A DNA stretch of 64,000 nucleotides, from the NCBI GenBank assembly GCA_008632985.1, contig QPGO01000158.1, forward strand, positions 1-64,000. Direction: 5' to 3'. Position 1 is the first letter of the stretch. The number at the start of each line of letters is the position of its first letter. The stretch is from Psammoneis japonica (taxonomy: Eukaryota). Positions 32,304 through 59,978 of the stretch are shown piece after piece. The notes under the pieces are model-generated. The model was not told the DNA's origin. It did no database searches and saw nothing but the letters and a program-made list of their open reading frames with translations. The translations under genes were made by a program, and so were the position numbers.

Positions 32304-32972
32304 GCTGTACTATAGAATGATTGAGGCTAAGCCATACAGTACTAGTCTGAGAACTGATAAGCAAGAACTGCGTGTTGGCTTGATGTTTGATGTTGTTGAT
32401 GCGTCGTCGGTCGTCGACGGTCGGCGGCAGAAAAATAAAATTGAAATTGAGTGGCAGGTTGACGGGGAGCTCATAACCAAAAAATTGACATGCGTGACTG
32501 ACGGTTTCTCAGTCGTGGATCGATGACGAGGACGACCAAACAAAAAAGCAAAAGAAAACCATGGTACATGAACAGCTGATGGACACTGTCATTATGAGAC
32601 TAGGCTTACAAAGTCTTTCGTTAAGGTCACAAATGCTTTCGAGCTGGATTGAGGACGATCACATATAGTGTTATGATCGAACGAGCCGATTACCTGTGGT
32701 CTGTCCGACCATCGATTTTGACGAGTTGCACGCATCTTGCATGCACAACCGCACAAATTTTCAAAAAATGAAAAACTCTCCACCCGACGCCCGACGCGAC
32801 GTTTCGCATCAGGCATACATACACCACTCCGCCGCCTGACTGGTTGCCATTTGCCATTCTTCGTCTTCCTGGACACTTTTACGATGGTCGAAAGCTTGGA
32901 CGAGACAAAAGAAAAGGCGCCATAAAGGCATTCTTTCCACAGCACACCGCTTGATGTTCGCCCTTTCCAACA

Positions 32973-33863
32973 ATGTCTAGAGACAGTAATGACGACGACG
33001 ACGACGATTCCTGCCTTGGTTTGGGATTCATGTTTGAGGGAGCCGAGGCCTCCGTGGTGAAACGCCTTCATTGGAAGATACCCAACGAAAACGACAATGA
33101 CGAAGAAGCGATTGAAGTTCTAGTCAAGGTTGTTGATGACGACCCCGGTGCGTTACAAAGCGGGCATTATCTGTGGCCAGGTGCACCGGCTCTAGCAGAA
33201 TACTTGCTGCTTTCTCGACGAGACAATGATCCTGAGATTCCTCCTCCCAAGTCAATCGTTGAACTCGGAGCGGGTTGTGCCTTGCTGTCTCTGACGGCAC
33301 TTTTGATATTTTCTTCATCACTTGACTCGGTTGTCTGCACAGATCATGACCCGGGAACATTGACAAGAGCCAAGGAAAATTATGAACTCAATCTGGCGGA
33401 ACTGCGTGACTTTAATGACATGGACGATCCGAGATGTGCAACTCTGGTGGAAAACGTCTCCTCTGTTCAATTTCATTTCGAGCCACTATCATGGGGAGAT
33501 GTCAATGCTGCCAATGCTCTTGTATCGGCAAATGGGAGTCGGTTCGACTGGATACTAGGATCGGATCTCATTTATTGTCAACAAGTCGTCGAACCTCTAT
33601 TCATTAGCGCATCCGCCTTGTTAAAAAGGGATTGTTCCAAAGGCGGCAAATTTATCTTATCTCAGAGCTTTGTGTACGACGAGGATACGGAACAAGAAAT
33701 TGAAAGAATGTGCGAAAAGCTAAACCTACAACGTATCGTCCGCGTAGACACACTTTCCGAAACAGCCGGCGCGGGAGTAAAAATTCAGGAGTTTTTACCC
33801 TTGCCTAGTAACAGTCAAAGAGCAGGTGACAATGTATTGCAAGGAACACTGCAGTATAAGTAA
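32973..33863 (+). CDS. Class I SAM-dependent protein methyltransferase (METTL21/Methyltransf_16-like)
   Basis: SGHYLWPGA, VELGAG, TDHD, LSWG and ILGSDLIY. Confidence 0.88.
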   Translation: MSRDSNDDDDDDSCLGLGFMFEGAEASVVKRLHWKIPNENDNDEEAIEVLVKVVDDDPGALQSGHYLWPGAPALAEYLLLSRRDNDPEIPPPKSIVELGAGCALLSLTALLIFSSSLDSVVCTDHDPGTLTRAKENYELNLAELRDFNDMDDPRCATLVENVSSVQFHFEPLSWGDVNAANALVSANGSRFDWILGSDLIYCQQVVEPLFISASALLKRDCSKGGKFILSQSFVYDEDTEQEIERMCEKLNLQRIVRVDTLSETAGAGVKIQEFLPLPSNSQRAGDNVLQGTLQYK

Positions 33864-35874: not shown

Positions 35875-37338
35875 TCAATGTGCTCGTGTTGAATGAATTG
35901 TTGGTGGTTCCCTTGGCAATCGGAAATGAGAGAACGAAAAGGATTTAGGAGCAACAGGTTTCTCATCACCACTCAAAAGAAAGTGGTACATGCCATGAAT
36001 TGCCAGCCTGATGAACTCATTTGCGTCAAAGTGCGGTATCGTTCTTTCCAAAGGCTCGGCCGACTCGAATCGATAAGCTGTATGAGTGAAATGCGAGAAA
36101 ACAGTCTCAATCTTTTCCAGCCCGAAGCTCACACGCGACAAATGGGAAGCCATTTTCTTTTGACAAAGTAGCTTAGAGAGAATCAGCAGCTGTCGCGCTT
36201 CCCTCTTGTCTTGAGCAAACGATCTGAGAATCCTGGGATCTGTCTCCGGTCCCAAGATTCGAACATATGGCCGCCGAAGTGTGTGCCGGTGTTCGGGTTG
36301 AAAGAATTCTTTCGCAATGGCATACAGGGTTCCTACTGAGAGTGAATTGCTGTATCCTGCTGTGGCATGGAACACTCTCACCTCGCCATCAGTCCTGTCA
36401 AAAGTGCCAAAGGCAGCATGCTGAAGCCGCTCGGCAACATAGTCACACGGGACAATGTCCAAGCAGATTTCTTTCCTTGCGGATATGGTGTGGAGAAAGC
36501 CCAGGCCAAACAAAACAACAAATGCAGCGAAGGTGGCCTTAGAGTCAATCCATCCAGGCATGGGGTAGTTCAGGGAAGATGACACAATCGAGGGACGCAC
36601 AACCACCAAAGGTACGGCTTCTCGACGTTCTTCGAGTAGAATCTCCGCCATTGCCTTGGTGTAGGTGTACGTATTTGGAAAGCCAGTTTCCGAAAGTAGC
36701 TTAGCCTCTTTCTCAGTAGATATCCCATTCAAAATAATACGGTTGTATTTATCAGTAGTGCTTCCGTCTCACAGCAACACAAGTCTCTCATTTTCTTTGG
36801 CTGAGCCGTCATGTCGCGTTGTGACGAACGCGGTGCTACAGTGGACGAAAGAGATTAGCTTGGAGCACCCTTTGGCCAGTTCAAGGAGTTCAAGTGCCCC
36901 TGTCACGTTAGCTTTGGCGGCTTCTGAAAATGGGAGATCAAAGTCAACCGCTGCAGCCAGATTAATCACGTGTGTGACTAACGAATGCACTAGTTCGACA
37001 TCCTTCTCGCTCAAACCAAGTTGCGGTCTTGACATGTCGCCCTCAAGCCCCACAACACGGCCATCATTGAATGCAGACTGCACTTTCTTGAAACAAGGTT
37101 GTGTACGCAGTTCTTCAATGCGCTGCTCAGAGGATCTCTCATGTTTCGGCCGAACCAAAAGAAGCACACAACCCACGTTATCGCTTGCGAGCAGACTCTC
37201 GAGTAGGACTTTGCCGATGAATCCAGTACCACCTGTGAGGAGTATGGTGTGCTTTTCACTGTGTAACCGAGGGCAGTTTAACCCTTCACCTCTCGATGAT
37301 GATAGATGAAAGGAAGACGGGACACGAACACCCGTCAT
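35875..37338 (-). CDS. Fatty acyl-CoA reductase (NAD_binding_4 / male-sterility domain)
   Basis: LTGGTGFIGKVLLE, INLAAAVDF, HCSTAFV, PNTYTYTKAMAE, VRPSIV, PGWID and DIVPCDYV. There is a break near 36733-36770. Confidence 0.88.
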
Positions 37339-37846: not shown

Positions 37847-39524
37847 GTGCCTGTTCCCGGTCGAAGGTTGTTTATGAAAGTAAGCAAAGGCGACATGACG
37901 TCGTTGTCTGTTTCTGTGGTCATTCCTGTTTTGAATGAACAAGACACGCTTCCATTGCTGCTTCGACACCTTTCCTCGTGCACTCCTCCACCATCCGAGA
38001 TAATTGTTTCTGATGGAGGTTCATCGGACGGAACAGTAGATGTTGCTAGAAAGGCCGAGGTCGTGGTGGTGGAATCAAAGGCAGCAAGCGGAACTCGTGC
38101 CTTGTCGCTGAACCGCGGTCTGGCCGCAGCAACGAGCGATTTGGTTGTCTTTGTACATGCAGACACGTTTCCGCCAGCGGACTTTGTAAGCCACATCCAA
38201 AATACCATGGCGGATGTCCGCGTTTCGCTTGGCGCATTTCGAGCAATTATTGCCAGCAGTCACGATGTTTCGTCAGGAAAAATGGTTGTGAATAGAATCA
38301 TCACGGCACATCACTACATCAAGACATACTACGGACCACTCTTTCTGTACCCTTATCAAATGCTAGTGCTGGGCTTGAGATCTTTCTTTGGAGACCAGTG
38401 TATGTTTGGTCGCCGTCAGCAGCTACTAGAGGTGGCGGGCTTTGACAATGTCCCAATCATGGAGGAGTCTACGCTCTGCAAGAAAATGGTCCGATATGGG
38501 CGGCAGGTTCTTCTGAGCGCCACTTGCACGACACTAGATCGACGCATTGCGCTATATGGAACACTGCGTATAACTCTTCTCCATCTCTTTATCGGCTTTG
38601 GCGCCGAGCTGGGTATTCCTCTAAGTTGGCTCAGTCCTCTCTACCCTCCACAACACGAACTGGAGGAGCGTCAACGCCTGGCCAAGATCAGGTCACGTAT
38701 TCGCGGCAATCGCTTTTTTGAACAAACTTTATATGGAACGAAGTGGTGAATGAGAAATGCTACCATCACGATAGAGTGAAAATTCCGTCAGTGGGTGCGA
38801 CGGTGATTGATGTTGGTGCCAACATTGGTATCTTTTCCCTGTGGACTGCTAATTGTTGCCAGCTCAAAGGCGCTACGATCCATGCTATGAACCAAGTCCC
38901 AGCACATTCAAGCTTCTTGAGGCAAATGCCACTGAGCCGTCGGTAGAAGCAATTTCTGGGAATCGTATAGTGACACACAATCTGGCCATGACATCGTCCC
39001 AACAATCAGAACAACGTTCCACCATGCCCCTTACTACCTACCCCAACTGTTCCGGGTGGGCAACGTTTCATCAGGACGAAGAAACGCTGCGTGAAGATTT
39101 GTGGTGTTTTGTTTCCAATAGCATTGGTGCGGGCATTGGAAACAACTTTATGATCAAACGTGTCGTACTTCCGATTTTGAAAGCTCTTGTTTACCCCTTT
39201 GCCTTCAAAGTTCTTACATTGGGTGCTGCACGATCCAATGTACAAGTCGCATGCCTGTCATCATTCATGAAAGAAAACTCAATTGATTTGGTCGATTTTC
39301 TTAAAATCGATGTGGAACGACACGAGTACCAGGTGTTGTTGGGCATATCCGACAATGACTGGCCCAGGATTGAAGCTGTTGCCGTCGAGACAGAGGTCAA
39401 CCATGCCGCAATTCGAGAGCTCCTAGAAACACACCATTTCCTTGTTGAGGAAAAGAAGGAGCAACGGTTGCAAGGTGCTCCTCATACCATCATTTGGGGC
39501 ATGCGCGTACCCAAGATGGACTAA
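37847..39524 (+). CDS. GT2 glycosyltransferase (TIGR04283-like) apparently fused to an FkbM-family methyltransferase, frameshifted
   Basis: SVVIPVLNE, DGGSSD, FVHAD, FGDQCMF and PIMEE, followed directly by VIDVGANIG, YEP and LKIDVE in adjacent frames. Confidence 0.75.
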
Positions 39525-42500
39525 ATGACGGTTTTAGTTGTCACTGTTCTTTCTTATATTCTATTGTTGCACTGCTGCAAATGAAACATTGGGGATTCTG
39601 CGCTTCCTTTCATTCTCACTTTCTCTAGTTACAGATGCCGATTCTGTTGTTATGTCATCCTTGTTCTCCGAGCTCTTGGGGGTTCAGCCCGAAACTCCTT
39701 GTCCACCCTTGAGCTCCAGAAAGATGATGCCGCATGCTCCGTTTGCTGCAACGCAAATCCACCTTATGCTCTCCACGAACCGGGTGTTGTCGCGCACGGC
39801 TCGAGTGTCAAAGCCGATCGAGGAACTGCATCTACATTTTTGGTGATGGGATTGACCCTGTTCCCAAAGATGACCAAGATGTGCGTCAAGTTCCAATTCG
39901 CATTGAAACATTTGGAATGCCAGAAAGCACGATCCATCACAAACATCCGCGGCGCACCCACATCTTTTTTTGCGTGCCACTGGCATGGACAGTTGATGAA
40001 TGCTGTCAGCAAGACGACATCGTGCAATCCAAAATTAAACAAGAACAAGGATGTGTGCATTGTTCTTTGGCCCTCTTTTTTTTAATGTTCCTTGAAGTGC
40101 CTGTTTTTGCCCCAAATCAGATTGAACCCACATGGTGTCATTGCCACAGCCATGAGACAGGCCTCCACAAGATTGACAATTTCTGCAAAGCCAATGAGCA
40201 TGACACCAACAAGCAGCAGCCACAGCAAGCTCTTGCTGTGCATCATGCCCCACACTTGGACTAAGATGCCCAGTGCCATGACAGTCCATTCCCCACATTA
40301 AAAACATGTGTGCCTCTCAAAAAGAAAAAACAGCAATGAGGCCTAGCAGCAGCTGCTCAAAGTCTCTTCTTCCAGCCCATCAAGAATGGTCATGTTCAAG
40401 CACATGGTGTGCCCTTGCCGGCCACCATCAAAGCAGTGCCAAACACTCCAAAGCTGCACCAAAAAAAGTGTTGGAGACAACTGTCCCAACACAGCAAAGT
40501 GCAGCGGCAGTCATGAATGTTGTGCCACATGCTGCAAGGCAGGGTGTGGCTCAAGCAAAGGAGCATTGTCACCGGGTCCATTCTTTGGGCTTCAACAGGT
40601 TTGGCTGCACCCAAGAGCAAAACATCCAAGTCAGCAGAAAGAGGATGAGAACAAAGTGCAGGTCAGCACCACTCCAACATGCTCTGTTCACTCAGCGGAA
40701 GTTGCCAAGTGAACAAACAGTGTTGCAATTTGGGGGGACACTCAACACCCACACACAGCAGGTGTGGGGGGGGGGGGGGGGCATGACTGGAGCACACAAA
40801 CACACTCAAGGTGTTTTTTTTTGTCACTTGTTTGTGCACATGTGCACGTGCGTGCAAAAGGGGCGTCGTCACTGTCAAAGTTGGCAACAGAGAAATTGGT
40901 CACGTGAAATCTGGGCCAAGCCAAGAGTTTGCACACATGGTGGCTCAATGGGGATTCCGTTGGCAACTTGACAAGAGCTCAAATGGGGCTAAAATCCGTT
41001 GTGCCATGACTCCTCTTCCTGCACAAAGGGAAAAACTTTGTGCTGTCAGCCACAACCCACAAACCAACTCAAACAGCCCCTTTTGTTCACATGCATGTGT
41101 GCCTTGCACCCAGTTTGTTCTTCTGGCTGTGTGTGGCGGCATCTGCCTTGGAATGGTTTGTTTGTTTGTTTGCGTGTGTGCACATGCAAGAGTGCACATG
41201 TGCAAATGTGCAAGTGTGTGTTGCCAACAAAGTTTGGCACAGAGAAGCAGGAGTTGGTCACATGAAGCAAGTCCTGGTTGTTGGGTTGGGAGTTTGCACA
41301 GCCATGATGGTGCATGGGAACTTCCAGCCCATGGTGGCTTGGCTCACTTTAGAGTTCAAATGGGGCCAAGACCTTGTGCAAGAACAACTCTTCTTGAGGA
41401 AAGGGCAGAGCTTTGCACTGTCAGCATTGACTCTGCACAGTGTGCTGTGCTCAGTTGTGCTGCTGGTGAAACAACATGGAACAGCCACCCCTTGTGTTTG
41501 CACATGTGCACACCTTGTGCCCAGTGTGTTCCATGAATGGTGGTCAGTGCCCCAAAGAGCTTGTCTTCCATGGCGATCATTTGCATCTTTTGTGGCAGTG
41601 TGCTGCCTGCTTCCAACTCCAACCAATGCCCCTCTTTGGTGCTTCACAGTGACAATGAGTCCACAAAAAGTCAACCTCAGCTTGATGTGAATGTTCAAAT
41701 GATGGCAATGCATGGAGTCCATGGATGACTGCAGAAGTTTTGGCAAGACACTTTTGTTGGCAAGTGTGAGTCATCTGCTGACAACACTGCAAGCTGAGCC
41801 AATGGTGGTGGCTCATCTGCTGTGAAACAGTGTGCCAATCCTTGTCATGAGGAGTGCCCAATCTTGACACAACAGAGAGCCAAAGGCAGGTGGTGATGCA
41901 GAGACAGTGATGAAGACAGAGACAAAGATGCCAATGAGTCAGATGGGTTTTTTTGGGTTCCCCAACTGCAAAATGTTTCTCATTTGCAGCATGACCCTTT
42001 TCTGCAGCAGAAGGTTGTGCGCAATGTTCCTGCAACATCAAGAAAGTGTGATCCTGTGTTGTTTGCAATTTTACATTGAGGGTTGCAGTTGATGACAATC
42101 TTTGTCCAAGTGCAACATTTTTGTTCAAAGCACACATTTGCAATGCCCAACCAAAACTCATTTGTGCCACATTGTTGCACGGATGTGTTTGTTGTCAACA
42201 TTTGCAACATGTCTCCCCAAACTGCAACGGGATGAAAAGTCGCTCTCAGCACACCAACCATCCCATGTCCAAACTTGTTTCTCTTGTTCCTCTTTGTTGG
42301 CTCAGTTGTCTTCCGTGCAATTGTGCAGAAAGCAAAAGGTGATTTTGACCGGGATGGCAGGGGCACTTGCTGTTGTTGCACAGAATGGCAGTGAGCACAA
42401 ACAAAAGGAACAAACAGTGTCATGCTGCAAGTGCAGCTCAGCTCAAACAATGGGCCAACAAAGTCATGGCTTTTTTCATTTTCAACAGCACCAAAGCCAT

Positions 42501-42740
42501 GCCCAGCACTGGTGTGCATGGGCCACTGTTTCTGCCTGAGAGAAACACCAAAGGAAACATGCAACTCTGGCATTCTCAGTGCATCAGGAATCACTGGTTG
42601 GGCAGCAGAGCTGGTGGATGCCAGGATGATTCACATCAAAAGAATCACCCTGGAAATGGCCCAGCATGACACCCATTTTTTTCCACAATTGTCATTCTTT
42701 GTTGGTTGTGTGTCGGGTGCGTTTCATGACAGAAACATTG

Positions 42741-43348
42741 GGCAGCAGGTTGATGGAGAGCTCACAACAAAAATTGGCCTGCATGACTCATGCCATCTCA
42801 GTCACAGATGGTGAGAACAGCCAAATAAAAAACAGCAAAAGAAAAGCTGTGGGCACATGAACAAATGATGGAGGATGCACTGTCAGCACAAGATTGTTTT
42901 TTTTACGTTGATGACTTGCTGTGGTGTGATCCAAGGCACACATCTCCTTGGTTCAATTTCATTTCAAGTCACTGTCATGGGGAGATGTCATTGCTGTCAA
43001 TGCTCCAGTCTTGGCAAATGGGAATCAGTTTGACTGGATGCTGGGATTGGATCTCATTTGTTGGCAACAAGCAACAAGTCATCTCCAACCTCCATTCATC
43101 AGTGCACCAGCTCTCTTCCTTGCTTGAAAAAGGGTTCTTGTTCCAAAAGATGCAAATCCATCTCATCTCATCTCAGAGCTTTGCACATGATGAGGACACA
43201 GAACAAGAAATTGAAAGAATGTGCAAAAAGCCAAAACTGCAATGCATTGTCTGCACAGACACACTTTCCAAAACAGCAATCACAGGAGCTGAGCCCAAGG
43301 AATTCTTTCCCAGTGCCTTTCAACCATCATCACAGAGCAGGTGACAAC
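42741..43348 (+). pseudogene. Degenerate copy of the 32973-33863 methyltransferase gene and its upstream region (42741-42893 ~ 32451-32600; 42951-43348 ~ 33465-33833)
   Basis: SQSFAHDEDTEQEIERMCKKPKLQCIVCTDTLSKTA matches SQSFVYDEDTEQEIERMCEKLNLQRIVRVDTLSETA, and the DNA aligns directly. Confidence 0.95.
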
Positions 43349-43699
43349 ACATCAAGATCAGGAGGGATCAGGAACATCACAGCTCAAGCACAGCTGCTGA
43401 AAATGTCAACACAAAAAGAATTCTCATGAGCAGCTGGGTTCAACAATGCAATGGGCCACAAGTGCTGCACATTCATTCGGCAGGGCAGCACATGTGGAGA
43501 GCATGCCCACACCCACAACATTTAGATTTCAGGTCTTGGACTGAGCTCACATTGGGCCATCCCCAGCATGGCAAACCAAGCAACTCAACAAATGCAAAAA
43601 CATGCTGAAACAAATTTTGCTGCACCCATGTGTTGTGCTGGAGTCACCTCAGCTCAAGTGGCAGTGCAAAAAAGCTTGGCTGTGAATCACTTCTTCTTT

Positions 43700-44400
43700 C
43701 AACACACAAAATGCAGTCTGCAGAAGATCTGAAGCAATGGGTGCACCCATGTGCCTCACTGGATGGCCCTGAGTTCTCCTGTGTGTTGTGAGCCCTGACA
43801 AACCATCACCCTTCCAAATTCTTCTGTGACCACAGTGACCTTGAGACCACTTTGTTGGGTGTGCACATTTTTGGTGTGTGCACTCCACTCCTGTGGTGCT
43901 CACCTCTGGATTTCTCTTGTGCTTGCAGGCTTCTTCTGAGTGCCACAGCCATTCTGTGTGCACTGGTTGGACTCAGCCACAAATTTTGTCCCATGGTCAA
44001 AAATGTGACCTGGGATTGTCGCAGGTGTCTGCATGACCAGGCTTGTTCTGCAGTGCCTCCTGCCACTGTGTCTGTGCATTTTGCAGTTGAAACTCTCTGC
44101 AGCCGGTGTGTTTGGCATGTTCTTGGCCATTTGACAATCATGGGGGTTGGCTCTGCACCAAGGCACTTGGTCCATTGCCACAAACCTGTGTTTGGCTCTC
44201 CAGTGCTCCTCACCACCAAGCTGGGAAACACACCATTTTCATTGGTGTGGTCATTGCAGTGGTCATGGCTGGGTCCAAAGCTGGGCTGCTGTGTTGTGAT
44301 GGCCTTTGAAATGGCATGGGCAGCAATGCACAGCTCTCCCATGTCATCCCATGGGGGCTTGATCTTCTCCTGTGCACACACCACCCTGCATGAGTGACAA
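43700..44400 (-). mobile_element. Degenerate LTR-retrotransposon (Ty3/gypsy-like) integrase remnant
   Basis: Across frames, AEQAWSCRH.RQSQV / IFDHGTKFVAE / KRNPEVSTTGVECTHQ resemble the integrase core W..RYP.P....DRG.EF...NPQAN..VER.H. Confidence 0.5.
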
Positions 44401-47400
44401 GTGTGCAAAGAGCAGCTGCCCTCCTGCTGTCTGTGCATCAGGGATGCACAGTTTTTTGTTGCTGGCTGTGATGCCCTCATGAATGAACTGATGATTTTTT
44501 TATGAAAAATGTGCTTTGAGACAAGTTGCAGTTGTCAGTGATGATGGTTGCATGTCTTGCAGTCATGTGGATTGGTGCAGAGGAGGTCTCTCAACATCAT
44601 GAGGCAATGCTTGTGGCAGCTCAAATTCTGTGGCAGTGCTGTTGGTGACTGTTGTTGAGAAGTGGTGGAGAACTTAGATTGCCTGGCCATGCACCTCACA
44701 TTTCTGTTCAACATGGCAGCAGTCATGGAGGTGATGAAATGAATGCAGTGGTGTGATGTGCACCCTTGGGATCATGGCAAAGAAAGAACAAAGAACAAAG
44801 ATCAGAAGAATTTCCAGAATTGGATGTGATTGATGTGGATCAGGCACAAAGAAGTGCTTTGAGCTCTGCTGGAGAGAACTCTGGACAGCTCCTCAGCATG
44901 AGCTGGCCTTCTGCACATTTGCTCACCACCCCACAATCTTTGTGCTCCTTGCATGAGAACAAATGACTTCAACCACCACATTGTGCAAATCATTTGTGGC
45001 AGCATTCAGTCACGCTGATGATCGAGCAGCAACTGTGCTTGCAGAATCTTTTTGAACCCTGTTGGAGGCATGTGGTGTGGTGAGCCACTCATTTTTTTTG
45101 TGCTGTTTTTCACAAGTTTTTGTGGTCATTGTCCCATCCATCAGAGTGAAGCAACAATTGCAAAGGTCTCTCAGACCAAAATGCACACTGGAGCACACAC
45201 CTTCATTGACTGGCTGACTCAACAAAAAATGGTGGTGTGGATGGAGCCACCCCCAGATGTCAGTGTTGGGTGGCCAAACTCAGATGCACTCTCCAGCCCC
45301 CCAGATGGTGACCCACATGTCATTTGGCGTGCAGGGTTCCACACGCAAGCTCTGCAGCATGAGAATTTAGTCCATGGACATGTTTGTCTTCAACAGCAAA
45401 CAAATGACCAAGTTTGTGGTGCAACTGTGCCTCTTGACACTTGCCAGGTGTTTTGAAGCTTTGCCTGCTGCTCTGCACCATTTTCAAGACATTTAAGAAT
45501 GCAGCACTGCAAAAATGTAGAAAGTTGTTGAGTGGATGGCCCAATGACTGCACCACAAGATGGCACAAATTGCACCAAAGTTGCACGAAAAATGTGCATG
45601 CATGACACATGGCCTGCAGATGAAAACATGACTTCAACATCACAGTCCAGCACTGCAAGCTGCAAGGTCCTGCCCAGAGCTGGAGTGCATCCTCAATGGC
45701 ATGAGCAACACAAAAGAACCTGGTGTCAACCAAGAGTCCCACATCACACAGTTCTTTTTGTGGAAAGAAGATCACAACATTTCTGGAACAGCTCAAAGTG
45801 AGTGCACTTTGCAGTGCCACTTTTGTCACAATTGCTTCAGAAACAACAGTCAAGAAGGAAAACCATTTGCTTCCCTCCCAGATGAGCAAGTGATTCAAGA
45901 TGACAGGGGTGCTTGTGCCAGAGCAAGAAGCTGAGTGAGTCACAAATGCCAGAGCAAAGCAGAGCATGCTGCAGCATCTTCTGGAGAGTCCATGCCCCCA
46001 CCATGCAATTGGGTTTTCCAGCACACCAAACACCCCTGGCACTGACAAAACTTCAACTGGTCCAGCCCAACTGGTGCTCTCCATTTGGGTTCTCCAATCT
46101 GAAGAAGGCTTTGAGAGTTGCACCTGCATCTTGCGTCAGCTCTGGATCCTCTGACAACAGCAACTTAACACAAATGCACCTTCTTCACTCTCTGCTTTTC
46201 TCAGCTGACTCTTGTTCCTGAGAGTCTTCATTCTTTCTTCACTTCTGATGTTCTGTTCTTTGTCTTTGACTTGTGTTCACCTTCACCTTCATCAACATCT
46301 GCATCTCTCTCCTCTCTTCAATTCTTCAACTCTTGATTGAGTGCAATGAACAGATGCAGATGAGGCATGCAGTGCCATGCATTCCAGAGAATGCTGGAGT
46401 TCAGCTGGGCCTCAACACAAAGACGTCACGTGTCGTCAGCTGTTTTTTGCATTTTCTGTTGTTGCCACAAAGCGTGCCCAGGAATCAGCGATGTTTTTGA
46501 AAGTGGCAAGTTTCCACGAATGTTCTACATGCAAGACAATGGTGTCAATTCTGCAGAGGAGGTGCACAAAATTCACAGTGATTGAGAAATTTAGCAACAG
46601 TCATGACTCAAACAAAATCTCTCCAAAAGCTTTTTCTTTTGTGCTTGATTTTTGATTGCAACTCATTGTCTTGCATGATGTGTTTGTTGCAGCACTTGTG
46701 GAATCTTGCTGTGCATGGTGATTCTGTTTCAACTGCAGCACTGTGTTGCAACTGCACGACTCGTCTGTGACAAAAATGTTGTGTCAAATTTGCACAAAGG
46801 TGCCTTGCACTTCCGTGTTGCAAGTGATCGCTTTCTCTGGACACACCTTCTGTCCACAGAGAGCAGCAGGGATTCACACCATCATCCATTGCACTGGTTG
46901 GTGGTGCCTTGTTTTGCTGTCGTTTCTTTTTGATTTGTTTGTGCGCATCTTGTTTTGTGTCAGCGGAGCTTGTCAGCAGTTCTGCTGCTGTGTTGCTGGT
47001 TGTGGCTCAGTCGGGGGCCCAATGCAAGTGCTCCCATTGAGGCAAATTCACACTGACCAGCTTGGTTTTTTTCTGCCAAACTCAGTTGTGTTTTTTGTTT
47101 GTTTGTGTCAAGAGCATTCCAGTCATCATGGTGTGTCCTTGCCAGCATGAAGTGCAGTCAACAACTCATGATGCACAGTGTCATTGGTTGCTCTGTCATC
47201 AATTGCATCAATCCTGCCTTCTGTGCTTTCTCAACTTTTCCCATTTGCTTTCCCCAAAGCTGGAGGATTGTCCCACTCAAATGTCACCACGTTTCTGGCT
47301 GAATTGGAGCCATGAAAGCAATCACCTTGAACAACCCCAAAGTTTGGAGGCATGAGAGCAGAGCTCTTGCCGAATGACACTTGTGAATGCCACTCCACCA

Positions 47401-49805
47401 ACAACTCCAGACCTCTGCACTTTTCTGCTGCACAAACAGCAAACCATTTTCTGGGATGGAATCCTGATGACTGAAGCCGTGCAGTCAAAGCTGCAAGGTC
47501 ATTCAATGCCAGGTCACATGTGGTGCTTGCAGAAGCCATCCAAAGTCAAAGTGATCTCATGAAGCCTCCACCGAAGGTTGTTCAAAGCCAAACAACTGTC
47601 ACCCCTTGGTGCAAAAGTGCAATGGCCTGCCCACAACAACCCAAAACAAACCCTTTCTTGCCTTTTCTTCAGAGCCATTCAATGCTTGTAGCCAGCCAAC
47701 AGCATTTCCTCCCTTGGTTTTCCCTTGCTGGAGTGCCATTCCTGACATCTGCACACTTAAAGCCCATGTCCCAACCTGTCAAGTCAGTGATGCAAGGAAT
47801 CATCACTTCCACCTGCTTGATTGTTGCCTCTGAGGACACCCACCAGCATGATTTGCTCTTTGGGATGGAGCCAGACTCTCTTTTATGCTTGAGCAATGTC
47901 TTGTGACTGCTCCAATCTGAGATTGCATTGAAGTGAAGCTTGTCACATTTCTTTGCAAGAAATGGATGATGCAGTGGTGAGGAGCAGTCCAAAGAATCAA
48001 GACCAAGCATTCTTGCATCGTGCACATGTTTTGTGCCGGTTTTGTCATCTGAACAATTTCAGCCTTGACCTGAAGATCAAAACATGAAAGACAAGTTCCA
48101 AGTCCTCACACTGGATTTGATTTGCAAACAAACAGAACATTCTTGGGAGCCTTGACATCTGTGCAGTGAAATGAAACCAAGTGCAGCTGAGAGAACGAGA
48201 AGCAAAAACACACAAGTTGAGCACTTGCAAAAGTGCAAACTCGCCGGCAGATGACAAGTCCCCCAGCATTTCCAAAACAATGGCATGCAATTTGTCTTCT
48301 CATTTGTGAATCTCTTCTCCTTGTTGTCTGGCCTTTTCATGAATTTTGTCTTCATCCACTTGATTTGCTTTTGAGTGCAGTGCTTTGCAGGAGATGGCAT
48401 CCTGCATCATCTTCCATGACATTCAAGCAAATCTTCAACTCCATGAGGATCATCAAATGCATCATGAATCACCAAGGCATGAACAATGCACACATCCACA
48501 AATGGTTGTCCATTGGCATTGCAACACATGCCACTTGAATCCATTCTGGCACACCATCTTCATGCTCTGCCACGGTTCCCAATGACAAGAGTTGCTGTTG
48601 CGCTGTTGTTTGGTGCTGTTGGAAGATGCCACCATGAGTCCATCCAGTGCTTGCAAAGGACCCTGTTCCAACAAACTCAACTGCAAATGAGATCCAATGG
48701 CAGCCGGCATCCCGCACCCCATTCATTTCAGTCGCTGCAATCAGCCCTTGCTGCAGCAATTTGTCCTTGCTCAAGACGCGTCCACTTGTTTTCAAAATCA
48801 TTTTTTAGACCATGTTCAACACTCGTGTTGTTTGTTGCAGTGTTGAACAGTCCACAAATGCAGCCACTTCCATTTCCATTGCCCGCAGGGTCTCCGTGTC
48901 TCTGCATCGACAACAGTGCTGCAGGCACACAGAATCAACACTTGCAGAGAATTTGCACTGGGCAGAAGAATCAAGGAGGAGTGCACCTGTCAGTTCAACT
49001 GGCCTGCCCCTCACTTTCCTCATCTCACCAGGTGGTTCACAAGATCTTTGGAGAGGCAGTGTCCAATCGGAGGACACAGACTGCAAGAAGTGATGGCTGT
49101 GAACGCCGTTGCTGTGGCCAAGATCGCACTGGACCAGCAAGCGGGTTGAGACTGCATCAACTGTTGCCATGTTGAAACCGCCCCACAACTGACTCTGTGG
49201 AATTGTGAGAAAGTGTGTTTGTTTGACGCTCTGGACCCATCCATGGTTGTGGATTGCTGGGACAAGCAGGCATGAATGAGCTCACCACAGGTGGCGGCTC
49301 AAACAATGAGTCGTGCAATTTGCGCAGGCGATGGTGGGCAGGCATCTTGCGGTCGGCGGTCTGTGCTCTAGTTAGAGCAGCTAGCTCTACCCTCTACTCT
49401 AGAGAGTAGAGAAGTAGTCTGCTCTACTGCTGCTAGCTAGTGCCGGCAGCAGCTGCTCTAGCAGTGGCTAGTAGAGACAGTCGTCAGAGAGTGTTGTTGT
49501 GAGCACACGGGTGTCGAAGCGCGCGGGAACCAATTTTCCATTATCCGGGTTCCACAAAATATCCAACCATGACAAAAGGCAAAGCGGCAAAAGCAAAGCC
49601 ACAAACAAACAGCCAAATCCATACAACAAGCCAAAGAGAGAGTAAAAATGGCGATACGGTAGACTCTGGGGAGAGTAGCTGTTACAAGCTGAAAAGTTGA
49701 ATTATGGTATTGTAAGTCAAACAAACTACGAGAGTTGATAAGATTTTTCGGCCCCCATTGGCTCCTGGAATACAGTATATGCAGGCGAAGAACAAGAAAT
49801 ATGTT

Positions 49806-50510
49806 TCAATCAAAGATGATCTCAAGAGTCGGAGTTTGGAAGATGTCAGAATCGAAAGAAACCATCAAGAAAGTGTCAGCCACGTCGGTTTTGGGGTTCA
49901 CCAGAGCCCATCCATGATTCGACTCGGGATCCGTGATGAATTGGGCAACGTCGTTAGTCACATCAAGCTCAAGGGAAGCTGGCTGCCCGTTATCTCCGTG
50001 TTCTGGGAGTTCAGCAAGGTCAGACGCTTCCAGCTCAGGAATATTGGCCCCTGTAGCGGTCGTGTCCCAAGGCGAAATCACGCGCTTCAGAGATACAGGG
50101 TCGCCGCCGGTGCCGGAAAGTGCAACGATCCGGAGGGTAGCAGACTTCACCGTCGCGTCAGTTGGGATACCTTGTGGCAAATCAAACTTAATCAAAGACA
50201 AGGCAAAGCCATTCTCTTCTACAGAAGTACCCGCCAGAGCACGGAGAAGGCCGAAATCAGGGGCGTCGGCGCCAGTAGTACCTTGAGCGCCTTCTCTTCC
50301 AGGACTGATCACAGAAATATCTATACCTGCAGTGAGGGTCAAGGGCGCCGTCGGGCAAAACCATGAGTCCTTCTTGCCAACCGCACAATGCTTTCCAGTC
50401 TTTGTCTTGCTCTTCTGTTTCGTGCCGTCCTTCGCTGGAGCTCCCTTTATCAAGCGAGCGTCACCCACGGAAATCAACGCAAGTATTGCTGGAAGAAAAA
50501 GGTACTTCAT
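49806..50510 (-). CDS. Secreted protein with a DNRLRE/CBM96-like beta-domain
   Basis: Signal peptide MKYLFLPAILALISVGDA, then LIKFDLP..IP..ATV.SATLRI, LDVT..V, NHGW and P.LEI. Confidence 0.65.
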   Translation of the reverse strand: MKYLFLPAILALISVGDARLIKGAPAKDGTKQKSKTKTGKHCAVGKKDSWFCPTAPLTLTAGIDISVISPGREGAQGTTGADAPDFGLLRALAGTSVEENGFALSLIKFDLPQGIPTDATVKSATLRIVALSGTGGDPVSLKRVISPWDTTATGANIPELEASDLAELPEHGDNGQPASLELDVTNDVAQFITDPESNHGWALVNPKTDVADTFLMVSFDSDIFQTPTLEIIFD

Positions 50511-59128: not shown

Positions 59129-59978
59129 GTCGTGTAAGCTCTTAAAATGAAAGAGTTTCTTCGAGTCGCCAATCCCAAAAGGCCGGCAACGTTTTCTCGC
59201 TCATGGCTTCGTGTGAACGTGTCGTCGCATTGTTTCGAAACAGTTTCAAAACATTTCAAAATGATTTCGAACGGGGTTGTTCAAATCACCAGCTCAGCTG
59301 GTATTGTCTTCTGGTGGAGACGACGAGGCATAGACAACCATGGTGGTTATTCCTTACGTCCATAATGGTGGCCAACCGGTCAACCTGAGCAATAGTCGTC
59401 GGAGGGCGTAGTTGCAGCAATGCGGGTTGCGGGTTCGACGGACCGTTACGATTTACGATTTACGGCTGGCTTCGGATTTCGCAACCTATTTTCGCTTGTT
59501 TGGGGGTATTTCGTAAATTTTCTCGAAAAACAACTGAATTAAGATATGATTTTATACAATTACGCAAGAATTATGGGATAAAAGAGCAAACGGCTTGTGC
59601 CGCGAGTTCAGCTTCAGTACGCACATCACACTGCAAATAGACTCTACTGTACTCTACTCTACTAGAGTAGAGTCCACTTTACTCCTACTACACCAGCTAC
59701 TACCGGTAGCCTAGCTATGGTACTACTAGTAGAGCTAAGGGTAGAGAGAGAGAGAGCTGCTGCTGCTGCACTCTCTACGCAGGGATGAGGGCCCTGCGGC
59801 ACTCCAGCTGCCTGCTGATGGCCAAAATCTTGTCTGGCCGCATGGCCATTGATGCCATACACAGCGACCCCGACACCCCGACGCTCTCTCTCTCTCTCTC
59901 TACGGGCCCGAGCTACCTGTGGCTATCTAGTAGAGAGTAGGTGCCATACTACAGTATGGGCCGTTGAATTCGTCTCTC

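What the first reader, a model, noticed from the sequence alone, without database searches (positions are those of the whole stretch)
39650..49366. ~9.7-kb domain purged of both TpA and CpG: a candidate regional hypermutation or genome-defence system
Seen: flanking genes use TA and CG freely, but here both nearly vanish and TG/CA dominate. Known: 5mC deamination explains CpG->TpG/CpA, but it creates rather than removes A/T, and fungal RIP (CpA->TpA) enriches TpA. Inference: a second process converts TpA to TpG/CpA (A->G on either strand) in a silenced, transposon-containing block. Adenine deamination or error-prone handling of a modified A at TpA could do this. I do not know of a described pathway that does.
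Basis: partly seen in the sequence, partly recalled or inferred. Interest (0 to 1): 0.95.

Follow-up and report, generated by a model that had tools for sequence, protein, structure and literature searches.

The report
TA- and CG-purged pseudogene block in diatom
A 9.7-kb stretch of a diatom chromosome made of dead gene copies has had almost every TA and CG step rewritten to TG or CA, which points to a targeted TA-specific DNA mutation process that has so far been reported only once, in an unrelated alga.

Summary
In 39632-49365 there are 26 TA where 358 are expected, and 103 CG where 579 are expected. TG and CA are doubled and GC content is almost unchanged.

It is a mutational record, shown in three ways:
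- A fragment inside the block copies a normal gene 10 kb upstream. All 20 parental TA and all 28 parental CG are gone; 16 and 23 became TG/CA. 54 of 63 parental TG/CA are kept.
- An old internal duplication shows TG in one copy against CA in the other at 17 of 65 aligned steps.
- A frameshifted PPIL4 pseudogene has family-invariant Arg turned into Gln/Cys/His and Tyr into Cys.

TA loss is uniform, sharp-edged, and bounded by a 9-bp direct repeat. CG loss is patchy and spares both shoulders. That indicates two processes.

The organism is a diatom. I found no transposon; the identifiable content is host-type pseudogenes.

TpA-to-TpG/CpA hypermutation of silent integrated DNA was measured directly in Bigelowiella natans (2026 preprint). 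The process therefore has a precedent, but not in diatoms, not at saturation, and not combined with CpG decay. Raw reads could not be checked.

The parts
39623..39631 (+). Left copy of the 9-bp direct repeat CTCTAGTTA, immediately outside the purged block
   Evidence: The word occurs only twice in the 64-kb window, at 39623 and 49366. A shared word of 9 bp or more turned up in 1.9% of 3000 random window pairs at the same spacing.
39632..49365 (.). TA-purged block (candidate insertion, 9734 bp). TA loss is near-uniform, apart from more residual TAs in the left ~700 bp.
   Evidence: 26 TA against 358 expected. TG and CA alternate at random (runs z = -0.3). The left ~700 bp holds 7 of the 25 residual TAs counted in 39652-49368.
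39632..40021 (.). Left shoulder: TA purged but CG at normal density
   Evidence: Position lists. The 39632 bin has 17 CG per 300 bp against 17.9 expected.
40022..48570 (.). Core: both TA and CG purged. CG loss is patchy, with partial retention around 40832-41131 and 46232-47131.
   Evidence: CG o/e 0.12 and TA o/e 0.04. 300-bp profile.
40810..41566 (+). Old internal tandem duplication: copies 40810-41163 and 41155-41566
   Evidence: 341 aligned columns: 237 identical, 81 transitions, 23 transversions. Aligned Y-R steps: TG/TG 29, CA/CA 19, TG-versus-CA 17, CG-versus-TG/CA 7, TA-versus-CA 1.
42737..43354 (+). Fragmentary copy of the upstream Methyltransf_16 gene region (two pieces: 42737-42885 and 42935-43354)
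   Evidence: blastn 73-74% identity. 88-89% identity in purine/pyrimidine space, 426 and 133 bits against a decoy maximum of 64. tblastn E down to 5e-24. Site fates.
32446..33863 (+). Unmutated parent of that fragment: lysine methyltransferase gene and its upstream DNA, in the normal flank
   Evidence: Pfam Methyltransf_16, E = 2.2e-10. TA o/e 0.54 and CG o/e 1.05 in the 33001 bin.
48049..48901 (-). Frameshifted pseudogene of a diatom-type PPIL4 (cyclophilin + RRM) gene
   Evidence: Five collinear profile hits hopping between three frames, E from 5.5e-9 to 2.5e-10 plus one weak hit. The only phmmer hit among 1.84 billion representatives is a PPIL4. Invariant Arg/Tyr are replaced as the purge predicts.
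48573..49365 (.). Right shoulder: TA purged, CG about half-normal. It covers the 5' part of the PPIL4 pseudogene and the DNA upstream of it.
49366..49374 (+). Right copy of the 9-bp direct repeat CTCTAGTTA
49366..49480 (.). CTAG-dense palindromic cluster abutting the right edge (possible insertion target or boundary)
   Evidence: 7 CTAG in 120 bp, the densest spot in the window, where the average is 1.7 per kb. Six short inverted-repeat pairs.

Best explanation
The block is a roughly 9.7-kb piece of non-functional DNA in a diatom chromosome. It lies between two convergent genes and is probably an old insertion flanked by a 9-bp duplication. It is built at least partly from dead copies of host genes.

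Two mutation processes have acted on it in place.

(1) A TpA-specific transition process.
- It changes TA to TG or to CA, which is A-to-G on one strand or the other.
- It hits both strands at random.
- It stops after one hit, because the target dinucleotide is then gone.
- It covers the whole block up to its junctions.
- It has stayed active until recently or is still active.
- Its signature matches the regional TpA hypermutation measured in Bigelowiella natans.
- The most likely chemistry is enzymatic deamination of adenine in duplex DNA at TpA. This step is inferred, not shown.

(2) Ordinary decay of methylated CpG to TG/CA. It operates in the methylated core of the block and spares the two shoulders.

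Shown: the direction, specificity, saturation and extent of the changes.
Inferred: silencing, methylation, the enzyme, and a defensive or silencing role.
For: Parent versus copy:
- 20 parental TA became CA 11, TG 5, other 4, kept 0.
- 28 parental CG became TG 12, CA 11, other 5, kept 0.
- 63 parental TG/CA: 54 kept.
- 399 other bases: 352 kept (27 transitions, 20 transversions).
- No TA-to-CG or CG-to-TA double change.
- Outside TpA there is no AT-to-GC bias: A>G plus T>C = 14, G>A plus C>T = 13.

Copy versus copy inside the block:
- 17 of 65 aligned Y-R steps are TG in one copy and CA in the other. My own estimate from the residual transition rate is about 1.5 expected.

PPIL4 pseudogene:
- R181Q, R187C, R190H, R280H, R322C, R333Q, Y175C.
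- Six-frame tyrosine content is 0.06% against 2.12% in the flanks, with His and Cys raised.

Composition and extent:
- Y-R steps are conserved and the in-silico conversion fits.
- TG/CA order is random.
- TA and CG loss have different extents.

Timing:
- A single early purge would have let about 205 TA re-accumulate. 26 are present, which equals about 10% of the background divergence.

Literature:
- TpA-only A>G/T>C hypermutation at about 6e-7 per site per generation in silent integrated DNA of B. natans.
- Diatom methylation is mainly at CpG and lies in discrete, poorly expressed blocks (PMC5124317, passages read).
Against:
- No genome was available. I cannot show other such blocks, a functional PPIL4 copy, methylation, silencing, or any candidate enzyme.
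- The known precedent targets viral DNA. Here the recognisable content is host-type, and no viral or transposon gene was found (an insensitive test).
- About 7 kb of the block is unidentified.
- Residual TAs are strongly flank-biased: YTAR 15 of 25 and RTAY 0 of 25, against 22% and 25% simulated. I cannot explain this. The paralogue sample gives no strand rule (YTAY: 3 TG, 3 CA).
- GA, GC and AT frequencies deviate from the simple conversion model.
- The 9-bp repeat has about a 2% chance expectation and was noticed post hoc. It lies in a CTAG-rich repeat-like context.
Confidence: 0.72

Rival explanations
1. Sequencing or assembly artefact. The block carries heavy base modification (for example 5mC at CpG and a modified A or T at TpA), and the base caller or polisher misreads it, so the true sequence still has TA and CG.
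For: Modified bases are known to cause systematic transition-like consensus errors on some platforms (recalled, not from a call). Every line of evidence here rests on the one assembled sequence.
Against: - Outcomes are strictly one change per site. 0 of 20 TA became CG and 0 of 28 CG became TA. Symmetric modification with per-position consensus errors should also give retained or doubly changed sites.
- The block also shows frameshifts, indels and about 12% ordinary divergence.
- CG loss is patchy while TA loss is uniform.
- Residual TAs in the aligned part are new arrivals (parental CA at 42826).
- The same signature was obtained from mutation-accumulation lines in another alga.
Confidence: 0.05
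2. One process, not two. A single enzyme or repair bias acts on both self-complementary pyrimidine-purine steps (TA and CG) and drives them to TG/CA.
For: Both targets are Y-R palindromic steps and both end as TG/CA, in roughly equal shares. In this window both losses occur only in this block.
Against: TA loss is complete where CG is at normal density (39632-39931) or half-normal (48632-49231). CG loss is patchy inside the core while TA loss is not. The B. natans process is reported for TpA only, and 'CpG' does not occur in that text. CpG decay has a sufficient known cause in methylated diatom DNA.
Confidence: 0.12
3. Duplication-triggered, RIP-like premeiotic mutation. The block was mutated because it contains repeated sequence.
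For: The block holds a copy of a gene region 10 kb away, a probable second copy of PPIL4, and an internal duplication.
Against: - The parent copy is untouched (TA o/e 0.54, CG o/e 1.05), whereas RIP mutates both copies.
- The chemistry is the reverse of RIP: TpA is destroyed rather than created, and GC is kept.
- The purge covers 9.7 kb uniformly, yet within this window only 0.6 kb of it is paralogous to the flanks.
Confidence: 0.06
4. Selection rather than mutation bias. TA and CG are avoided because the block, or an RNA made from it, must escape a nuclease or sensor. Or the block is foreign DNA that natively has this composition.
For: UpA and CpG are both under-represented in many RNA viruses (search listing and abstracts only).
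Against: - The identifiable content is dead: frameshifted PPIL4 with invariant residues destroyed and a truncated gene fragment.
- Its nearest relatives are this genome's own neighbouring gene and diatom PPIL4.
- Duplicated copies resolved the same ancestral sites differently.
- Depletion to o/e 0.04 is far beyond viral suppression.
Confidence: 0.03

Closest known systems
Regional TpA hypermutation of integrated viral DNA in Bigelowiella natans (Mettrop et al., bioRxiv 10.64898/2026.01.13.699255; abstract, passages and sections 6, 11, 12 read)
   Same: - Transitions confined to TpA, giving TpG or CpA depending on strand.
- Confined to a discrete, silent, single-copy region.
- Long-term signature of TpA depletion with CpA+TpG gain.
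- The rest of the genome is normal.
   Different: - Different supergroup lineage: diatom (stramenopile) versus chlorarachniophyte (rhizarian).
- Here the purge is saturated (TA o/e 0.04 against Rho 0.45 for their NCLDV region).
- The recognisable targets here are host-type pseudogenes, not viral genes.
- It is superimposed on CpG decay.
- Rates here are inferred from substitutions, not measured.
Methylation-driven CpG decay (5mC deamination) in methylated blocks; diatom CpG methylation of silent or repeat blocks (Traller et al. 2016, PMC5124317, passages read)
   Same: CG to TG/CA on both strands. Block-wise, patchy, with spared shoulders. Associated with non-expressed DNA.
   Different: Methylation of this block was not measured. 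CpG decay alone cannot remove TA.
Fungal repeat-induced point mutation (RIP)
   Same: Irreversible inactivation of redundant DNA by dense, dinucleotide-specific transitions on both strands.
   Different: RIP converts CpA to TpA, enriches TpA and A+T, needs duplicates and mutates both copies. Here TpA is destroyed, G+C is kept, and the parent copy is intact.
ADAR-type A-to-I hyperediting, copied back into DNA through retrotransposition
   Same: A-to-G changes with a preference for a 5' U/T neighbour.
   Different: ADAR also edits ApA and gives strand-coordinated clusters on one strand of an RNA copy. Here AA is not depleted (o/e 1.24 against 1.16) and TG/CA outcomes are interleaved at random on both strands.
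Pack-MULE-like or other gene-fragment-carrying insertions with 9-bp target-site duplications
   Same: 9-bp flanking direct repeat. The cargo includes host gene fragments.
   Different: No terminal inverted repeats survive, even with transition-tolerant scoring (score 62.5 against a null mean of 60.9). No transposase was found.

Membership tests
TpA-specific regional hypermutation (B. natans type) | Changes are A-to-G / T-to-C transitions at TpA, giving TpG or CpA | tested here: met
   16 of 20 parental TA became TG (5) or CA (11), and none was kept.
TpA-specific regional hypermutation (B. natans type) | No comparable AT-to-GC excess outside TpA | tested here: met
   At non-target bases A>G plus T>C = 14 and G>A plus C>T = 13, out of 399 bases.
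TpA-specific regional hypermutation (B. natans type) | Confined to a discrete region, with the neighbouring genome normal | tested here: met
   Sharp edges at 39651/39652 and 49368/49369. The flanking 300-bp bins have normal TA counts.
TpA-specific regional hypermutation (B. natans type) | Target is integrated viral or otherwise foreign DNA | tested here: inconclusive
   Only host-type remnants could be identified. About 7 kb is unidentified. A 9-bp flanking repeat suggests an insertion.
TpA-specific regional hypermutation (B. natans type) | Directly measured elevated mutation rate; transcriptional silence | not testable with these tools
Indirect only: few TAs have re-accumulated.
5mC-driven CpG decay | CG to TG and CA in similar numbers | tested here: met
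   28 parental CG became TG 12, CA 11, other 5, kept 0.
5mC-driven CpG decay | Cytosine methylation at CpG in the affected DNA | not testable with these tools
   No methylation data. The patchy profile with spared shoulders is compatible.
Fungal RIP | CpA to TpA, with TpA and A+T enrichment | tested here: not met
   TA o/e 0.04, CA o/e 1.9, GC 0.478 against 0.488 in the flanks.
Fungal RIP | Both copies of a duplication are mutated | tested here: not met
   The parent at 32446-33863 has normal TA and CG.
ADAR hyperediting of an RNA intermediate | Strand-coordinated A-to-G clusters, with ApA also edited | tested here: not met
   Runs test z = -0.3 for TG/CA order. AA is not depleted.
DNA transposon (MULE-like) insertion | Target-site duplication | tested here: met
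   CTCTAGTTA at both junctions and nowhere else in the window. Chance about 1.9%.
DNA transposon (MULE-like) insertion | Terminal inverted repeats and a transposase | tested here: not met
   TIR alignment score is within the null. No Pfam family in six frames (that scan also missed the two known pseudogenes, so it is weak evidence).

The most novel reading that the evidence does not exclude
Diatoms have a chromatin- or junction-delimited DNA-editing pathway that erases TpA from silenced duplicated or inserted DNA. It acts on duplex DNA on both strands and works alongside CpG methylation. It is the same pathway as the one just seen in Bigelowiella. That would make it an ancient genome-defence or gene-killing system, spread across the SAR supergroup, that is functionally analogous to fungal RIP but chemically opposite. 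It would also be able to inactivate redundant host genes permanently, not only viruses.
Probability: 0.45. Interest if true: 0.9.

Novelty: new variant of a known kind. Interest (0 to 1): 0.8.

Why it matters
- **Rarity.** In the held library, TpA-directed hypermutation of DNA appears in one 2026 preprint on one rhizarian alga, with no enzyme identified. None of those searches found it in diatoms.
- **What this locus adds.** It shows the same signature in a diatom, taken to saturation. A built-in parent/copy control reads out the specificity of the process site by site.
- **How it is targeted.** TA loss stops at the junctions of the block, whereas CpG decay does not reach them. This hints that the TA process recognises the unit as a whole.
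- **Consequences if general.** It would be a new class of eukaryotic genome defence or pseudogenisation. It would also be a natural source of a duplex-DNA, TpA-specific A-to-G activity.
- **Practical use.** Purine/pyrimidine-space alignment gives a simple way to find such blocks and trace their origins in algal genomes.

Tried and rejected
- **Pfam, six read-through frames.** No family at E <= 1. The scan also missed both pseudogenes found later, so its negatives are weak.
- **Direct, inverted and tandem repeats.** None at those settings. The diverged internal duplication was found only by low-stringency blastn.
- **Rfam.** Nothing.
- **Purine/pyrimidine period-3 test for fossil coding.** Low in the block, but also low over the PPIL4 pseudogene. 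It is therefore not informative, and I withdraw my early 'noncoding' reading.
- **Home-made codon log-odds detector.** It failed its positive control, and its top windows were artefacts of CG codons. Dropped.
- **phmmer of the three minus-strand frames against PDB sequences.** No hit. It misses PPIL4 too, so I did not run the plus frames.
- **Right-edge ORF as a copy of the neighbouring CBM96 gene.** E = 0.12; rejected.
- **Block as a tandem duplicate of the upstream 9.7 kb.** Rejected. Only 0.6 kb matches the flanks in purine/pyrimidine space or at protein level.
- **Terminal inverted or long terminal repeats.** Scores within the null.
- **A flank rule for which strand is hit.** The sample is too small.
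- **Second example elsewhere.** I scanned 76 metagenome loci (477 kb, 1641 windows). The lowest TA o/e was 0.09, in a 70% G+C contig carrying an apparently intact multi-exon PPIL4 with normal CG. That is general TA poverty, not a purge.
- **Earlier scan notes.** Nothing for this genome; only phage cases of TG/CA or TA bias.
- Whole genome, sequencing runs, cluster members, protein atlas.


Full report
**1. The observation**

In 1-kb bins the window has TA o/e about 0.35-0.9 and CG o/e about 0.75-1.5 everywhere except 40001-49000. There TA o/e is 0.01-0.10, CG o/e is 0.02-0.31, and TG and CA reach 1.7-2.1, with G+C unchanged at 0.45-0.49.

From flank frequencies, 39632-49365 should hold 358 TA and 579 CG. 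It holds 26 and 103 (log10 P = -115 and -131). The longest TA-free run is 1097 bp, against 297 bp in the flanks.

The two depletions do not coincide:
- TA is missing from 39652 to 49368.
- CG is at normal density up to about 40021 and returns from about 48573.
- Inside the core, CG is retained in patches.

**2. The composition fits a simple conversion**

- The sum of pyrimidine-purine steps is the same in flanks (0.241) and core (0.247). TA+CG falls by 0.087 and TG+CA rises by 0.093.
- Converting every TA and CG of the flanks to TG or CA at random reproduces the block's table: CA 0.1195 vs 0.1192, TG 0.1216 vs 0.1155, AA 0.0805 vs 0.0812, TT 0.0809 vs 0.0836. GA is lower, and GC higher, than predicted.
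- TG and CA follow each other in random order (runs z = -0.3). There are no strand-coordinated clusters.

**3. The organism and the setting**

- The window is gene-dense eukaryotic DNA: NAT10, NirB-type nitrite reductase, DHHC, SET and LRR proteins.
- NAT10's best relatives, at 60-67% identity, are diatoms: Chaetoceros, Cylindrotheca, Pseudo-nitzschia, Nitzschia and Thalassiosira. The species itself is not in the protein collection.
- An apparent in-frame stop in the neighbouring acyl-CoA reductase sits at a GTGAG and is probably an intron.
- The block lies between the 3' ends of two convergent genes: an FkbM-type methyltransferase ending at 39524 and a CBM96 protein ending at 49806.

**4. Direct proof of mutation, line 1: parent versus copy**

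Low-stringency blastn showed that 42737-42885 and 42935-43347 are copies of 32446-32591 and 33449-33832. The latter is a lysine methyltransferase (Methyltransf_16) gene in the normal flank. Identity is 73-74% in four letters and 88-89% in purine/pyrimidine space, with scores of 426 and 133 bits against a decoy maximum of 64.

Site by site:

| Parental state | n | Fate in the copy |
|---|---|---|
| TA | 20 | CA 11, TG 5, other 4, kept 0 |
| CG | 28 | TG 12, CA 11, other 5, kept 0 |
| TG | 31 | kept 25 |
| CA | 32 | kept 29 |
| other bases | 399 | 352 unchanged (27 transitions, 20 transversions) |

- No TA became CG and no CG became TA, so each site took one hit and was then immune.
- Outside the target dinucleotides there is no AT-to-GC bias (14 vs 13).
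- The parent copy is compositionally normal.

**5. Line 2: copy versus copy inside the block**

An old internal duplication (40810-41163 vs 41155-41566) has 237 identical columns, 81 transitions and 23 transversions. Among aligned Y-R steps:
- 29 are TG/TG and 19 are CA/CA.
- 17 are TG in one copy and CA in the other. My estimate from the remaining transition rate is about 1.5 expected.
- 7 are CG against TG/CA, and 1 is TA against CA.

This is what independent resolution of ancestral TA/CG after the duplication, in place, should give.

**6. Line 3: a dead conserved gene**

- A read-through of the right-hand 3.6 kb (minus strand) gave a single hit among 1.84 billion representatives, at E = 9.5e-4.
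- That hit is a cyclophilin + RRM protein. Its family is diatom PPIL4: named relatives come from Seminavis, Nitzschia, Cyclotella, Thalassiosira and Discostella.
- A profile built from 30 family members then gave five collinear minus-strand hits that hop between the three frames:

| Profile positions | Window coordinates | E-value |
|---|---|---|
| 52-81 | 48815-48901 | 0.0057 |
| 78-174 | 48535-48825 | 5.5e-9 |
| 176-219 | 48398-48529 | 3.7e-10 |
| 248-302 | 48210-48374 | 2.5e-10 |
| 290-330 | 48049-48162 | 5.4e-8 |

- At family-invariant or nearly invariant positions the pseudogene reads R181Q, R187C, R190H, R280H, R322C, R333Q and Y175C. 'IYG' has become 'ICG'. These are exactly the products of CGN-to-CAN/TGN and TAY-to-TGY.
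- Over all six frames, tyrosine is 0.06% in the block against 2.12% in the flanks. His, Cys and Gln are raised and Arg is more than halved.

**7. What the block is**

- I found no transposon or viral gene. Pfam in six frames is empty, but it also missed both remnants above, so this negative is weak. About 7 kb remains unidentified.
- The word CTCTAGTTA occurs only twice in the window, at 39623 and 49366, hugging both edges. Window pairs at this spacing share a word of 9 bp or more in 1.9% of trials. This suggests a 9734-bp insertion with a 9-bp target-site duplication. The caveats are that it was noticed post hoc and lies in CTAG-rich sequence.
- Transition-tolerant alignment finds no terminal inverted or direct repeats.
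- The 120 bp outside the right junction is the most CTAG-dense spot of the window and is built of short palindromes.
- The block is not a tandem copy of the upstream 9.7 kb. Only 0.6 kb matches.

**8. Two processes, and timing**

- TA loss is complete where CG density is normal (left shoulder) or half-normal (right shoulder, which includes the 5' part of the PPIL4 pseudogene and its upstream DNA). CG loss is patchy and TA loss is not.
- I therefore read CG loss as ordinary decay of methylated CpG. Diatom methylation is mainly at CpG and lies in discrete, poorly expressed blocks next to unmethylated gene-rich DNA (PMC5124317, passages read).
- TA loss is a second, independent process.
- Given the background divergence in the pseudogene (11.8%), a single early purge would have let about 205 TA return. 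The 26 present correspond to about 10% of that divergence. So the TA process has stayed active until recently or still is.
- In the aligned part of the copy, the one TA with an aligned parental dinucleotide (42826) is a new arrival, with parental CA.

**9. Comparison with what is known**

- RIP is excluded. Here TpA is destroyed rather than made, G+C is kept, and the parent is untouched.
- RNA-level ADAR editing of a retro-copy is excluded by the random interleaving of both strands' outcomes and by normal AA.
- Four literature searches found one matching phenomenon: Mettrop et al., bioRxiv 2026 (abstract, passages and sections 6, 11, 12 read).
  - In mutation-accumulation lines of Bigelowiella natans, 231 of 302 nuclear point mutations fall in two integrated viral regions.
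  - They are almost exclusively A>G/T>C, and all fall on TpA.
  - The rate is about 6e-7 per site per generation, in some lines only.
  - The genome holds 124 TpA-poor, CpA+TpG-rich clusters.
  - The authors propose an ADAT2-like adenine deaminase, untested.
  - 'CpG' and 'diatom' do not occur in that text.
- Nothing comparable for diatoms turned up in these searches. The diatom mutation-rate paper (PMC6604790) was seen only in the search listing, with zero occurrences of 'TpA'.

**10. What remains open**

An artefact of base calling on modified DNA is unlikely but not excluded. The evidence against it is the one-hit-only outcomes, the frameshifts and ordinary divergence, the patchy CG loss against uniform TA loss, and the flank-biased residual TAs.
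- Residual TAs are YTAR in 15 of 25 and RTAY in 0 of 25. The flanks give 16% and 31%, and uniformly simulated new arrivals give 22% and 25%. Either TA flanked by purine on the 5' side and pyrimidine on the 3' side is the preferred substrate, or new TAs arise mainly by C-to-T at dipyrimidines. The paralogue sample is too small to decide.
- A scan of 477 kb of metagenome DNA around PPIL4 relatives found no second example. That sample is far too small to bear on frequency.

**11. Verdict**

The transposon content, the silencing and the chemistry are not shown.

It is best filed as a new variant of a barely described kind: the Bigelowiella-type TpA hypermutation, here in a diatom, at saturation, on host-type pseudogenes, and layered with CpG decay.

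Noticed in passing
window 49366-49480: Cluster of short palindromes built on GCTCTA/TAGAGC and CTCTAC/GTAGAG. It has 7 CTAG in 120 bp, the densest spot in the window, and sits immediately outside the purged block.
   Followed up: partly
window 39652-49368 (residual TA sites): All 25 surviving TAs have a pyrimidine before or a purine after, so each forms TAA/TAG on at least one strand. None is RTAY, although 31% of flank TAs are.
   Followed up: partly
window 39652-40350: The left ~700 bp of the block keeps 7 of the 25 residual TAs. The TA purge is therefore less complete at the left edge, while the right edge is abrupt.
   Followed up: no
window 59611-59780: The most TA-dense spot of the window: up to 21 TA in 120 bp.
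   Followed up: no
window 40768-40815: A run of about 15 G, followed shortly by a run of about 10 T, inside the block next to the internal duplication.
   Followed up: no
window 36769-36771 (minus strand): In-frame TGA splitting the fatty acyl-CoA reductase (NAD_binding_4) ORF. It lies in a GTGAG, so it is probably the start of a short intron rather than a recoded stop.
   Followed up: partly
window 53970: The only N in the 64-kb window.
   Followed up: no
L075:2001-6000: A 70% G+C metagenome contig with TA o/e 0.0-0.3, normal CG and an apparently intact multi-exon PPIL4. This is general TA poverty of a GC-rich genome, not a local purge.
   Followed up: partly
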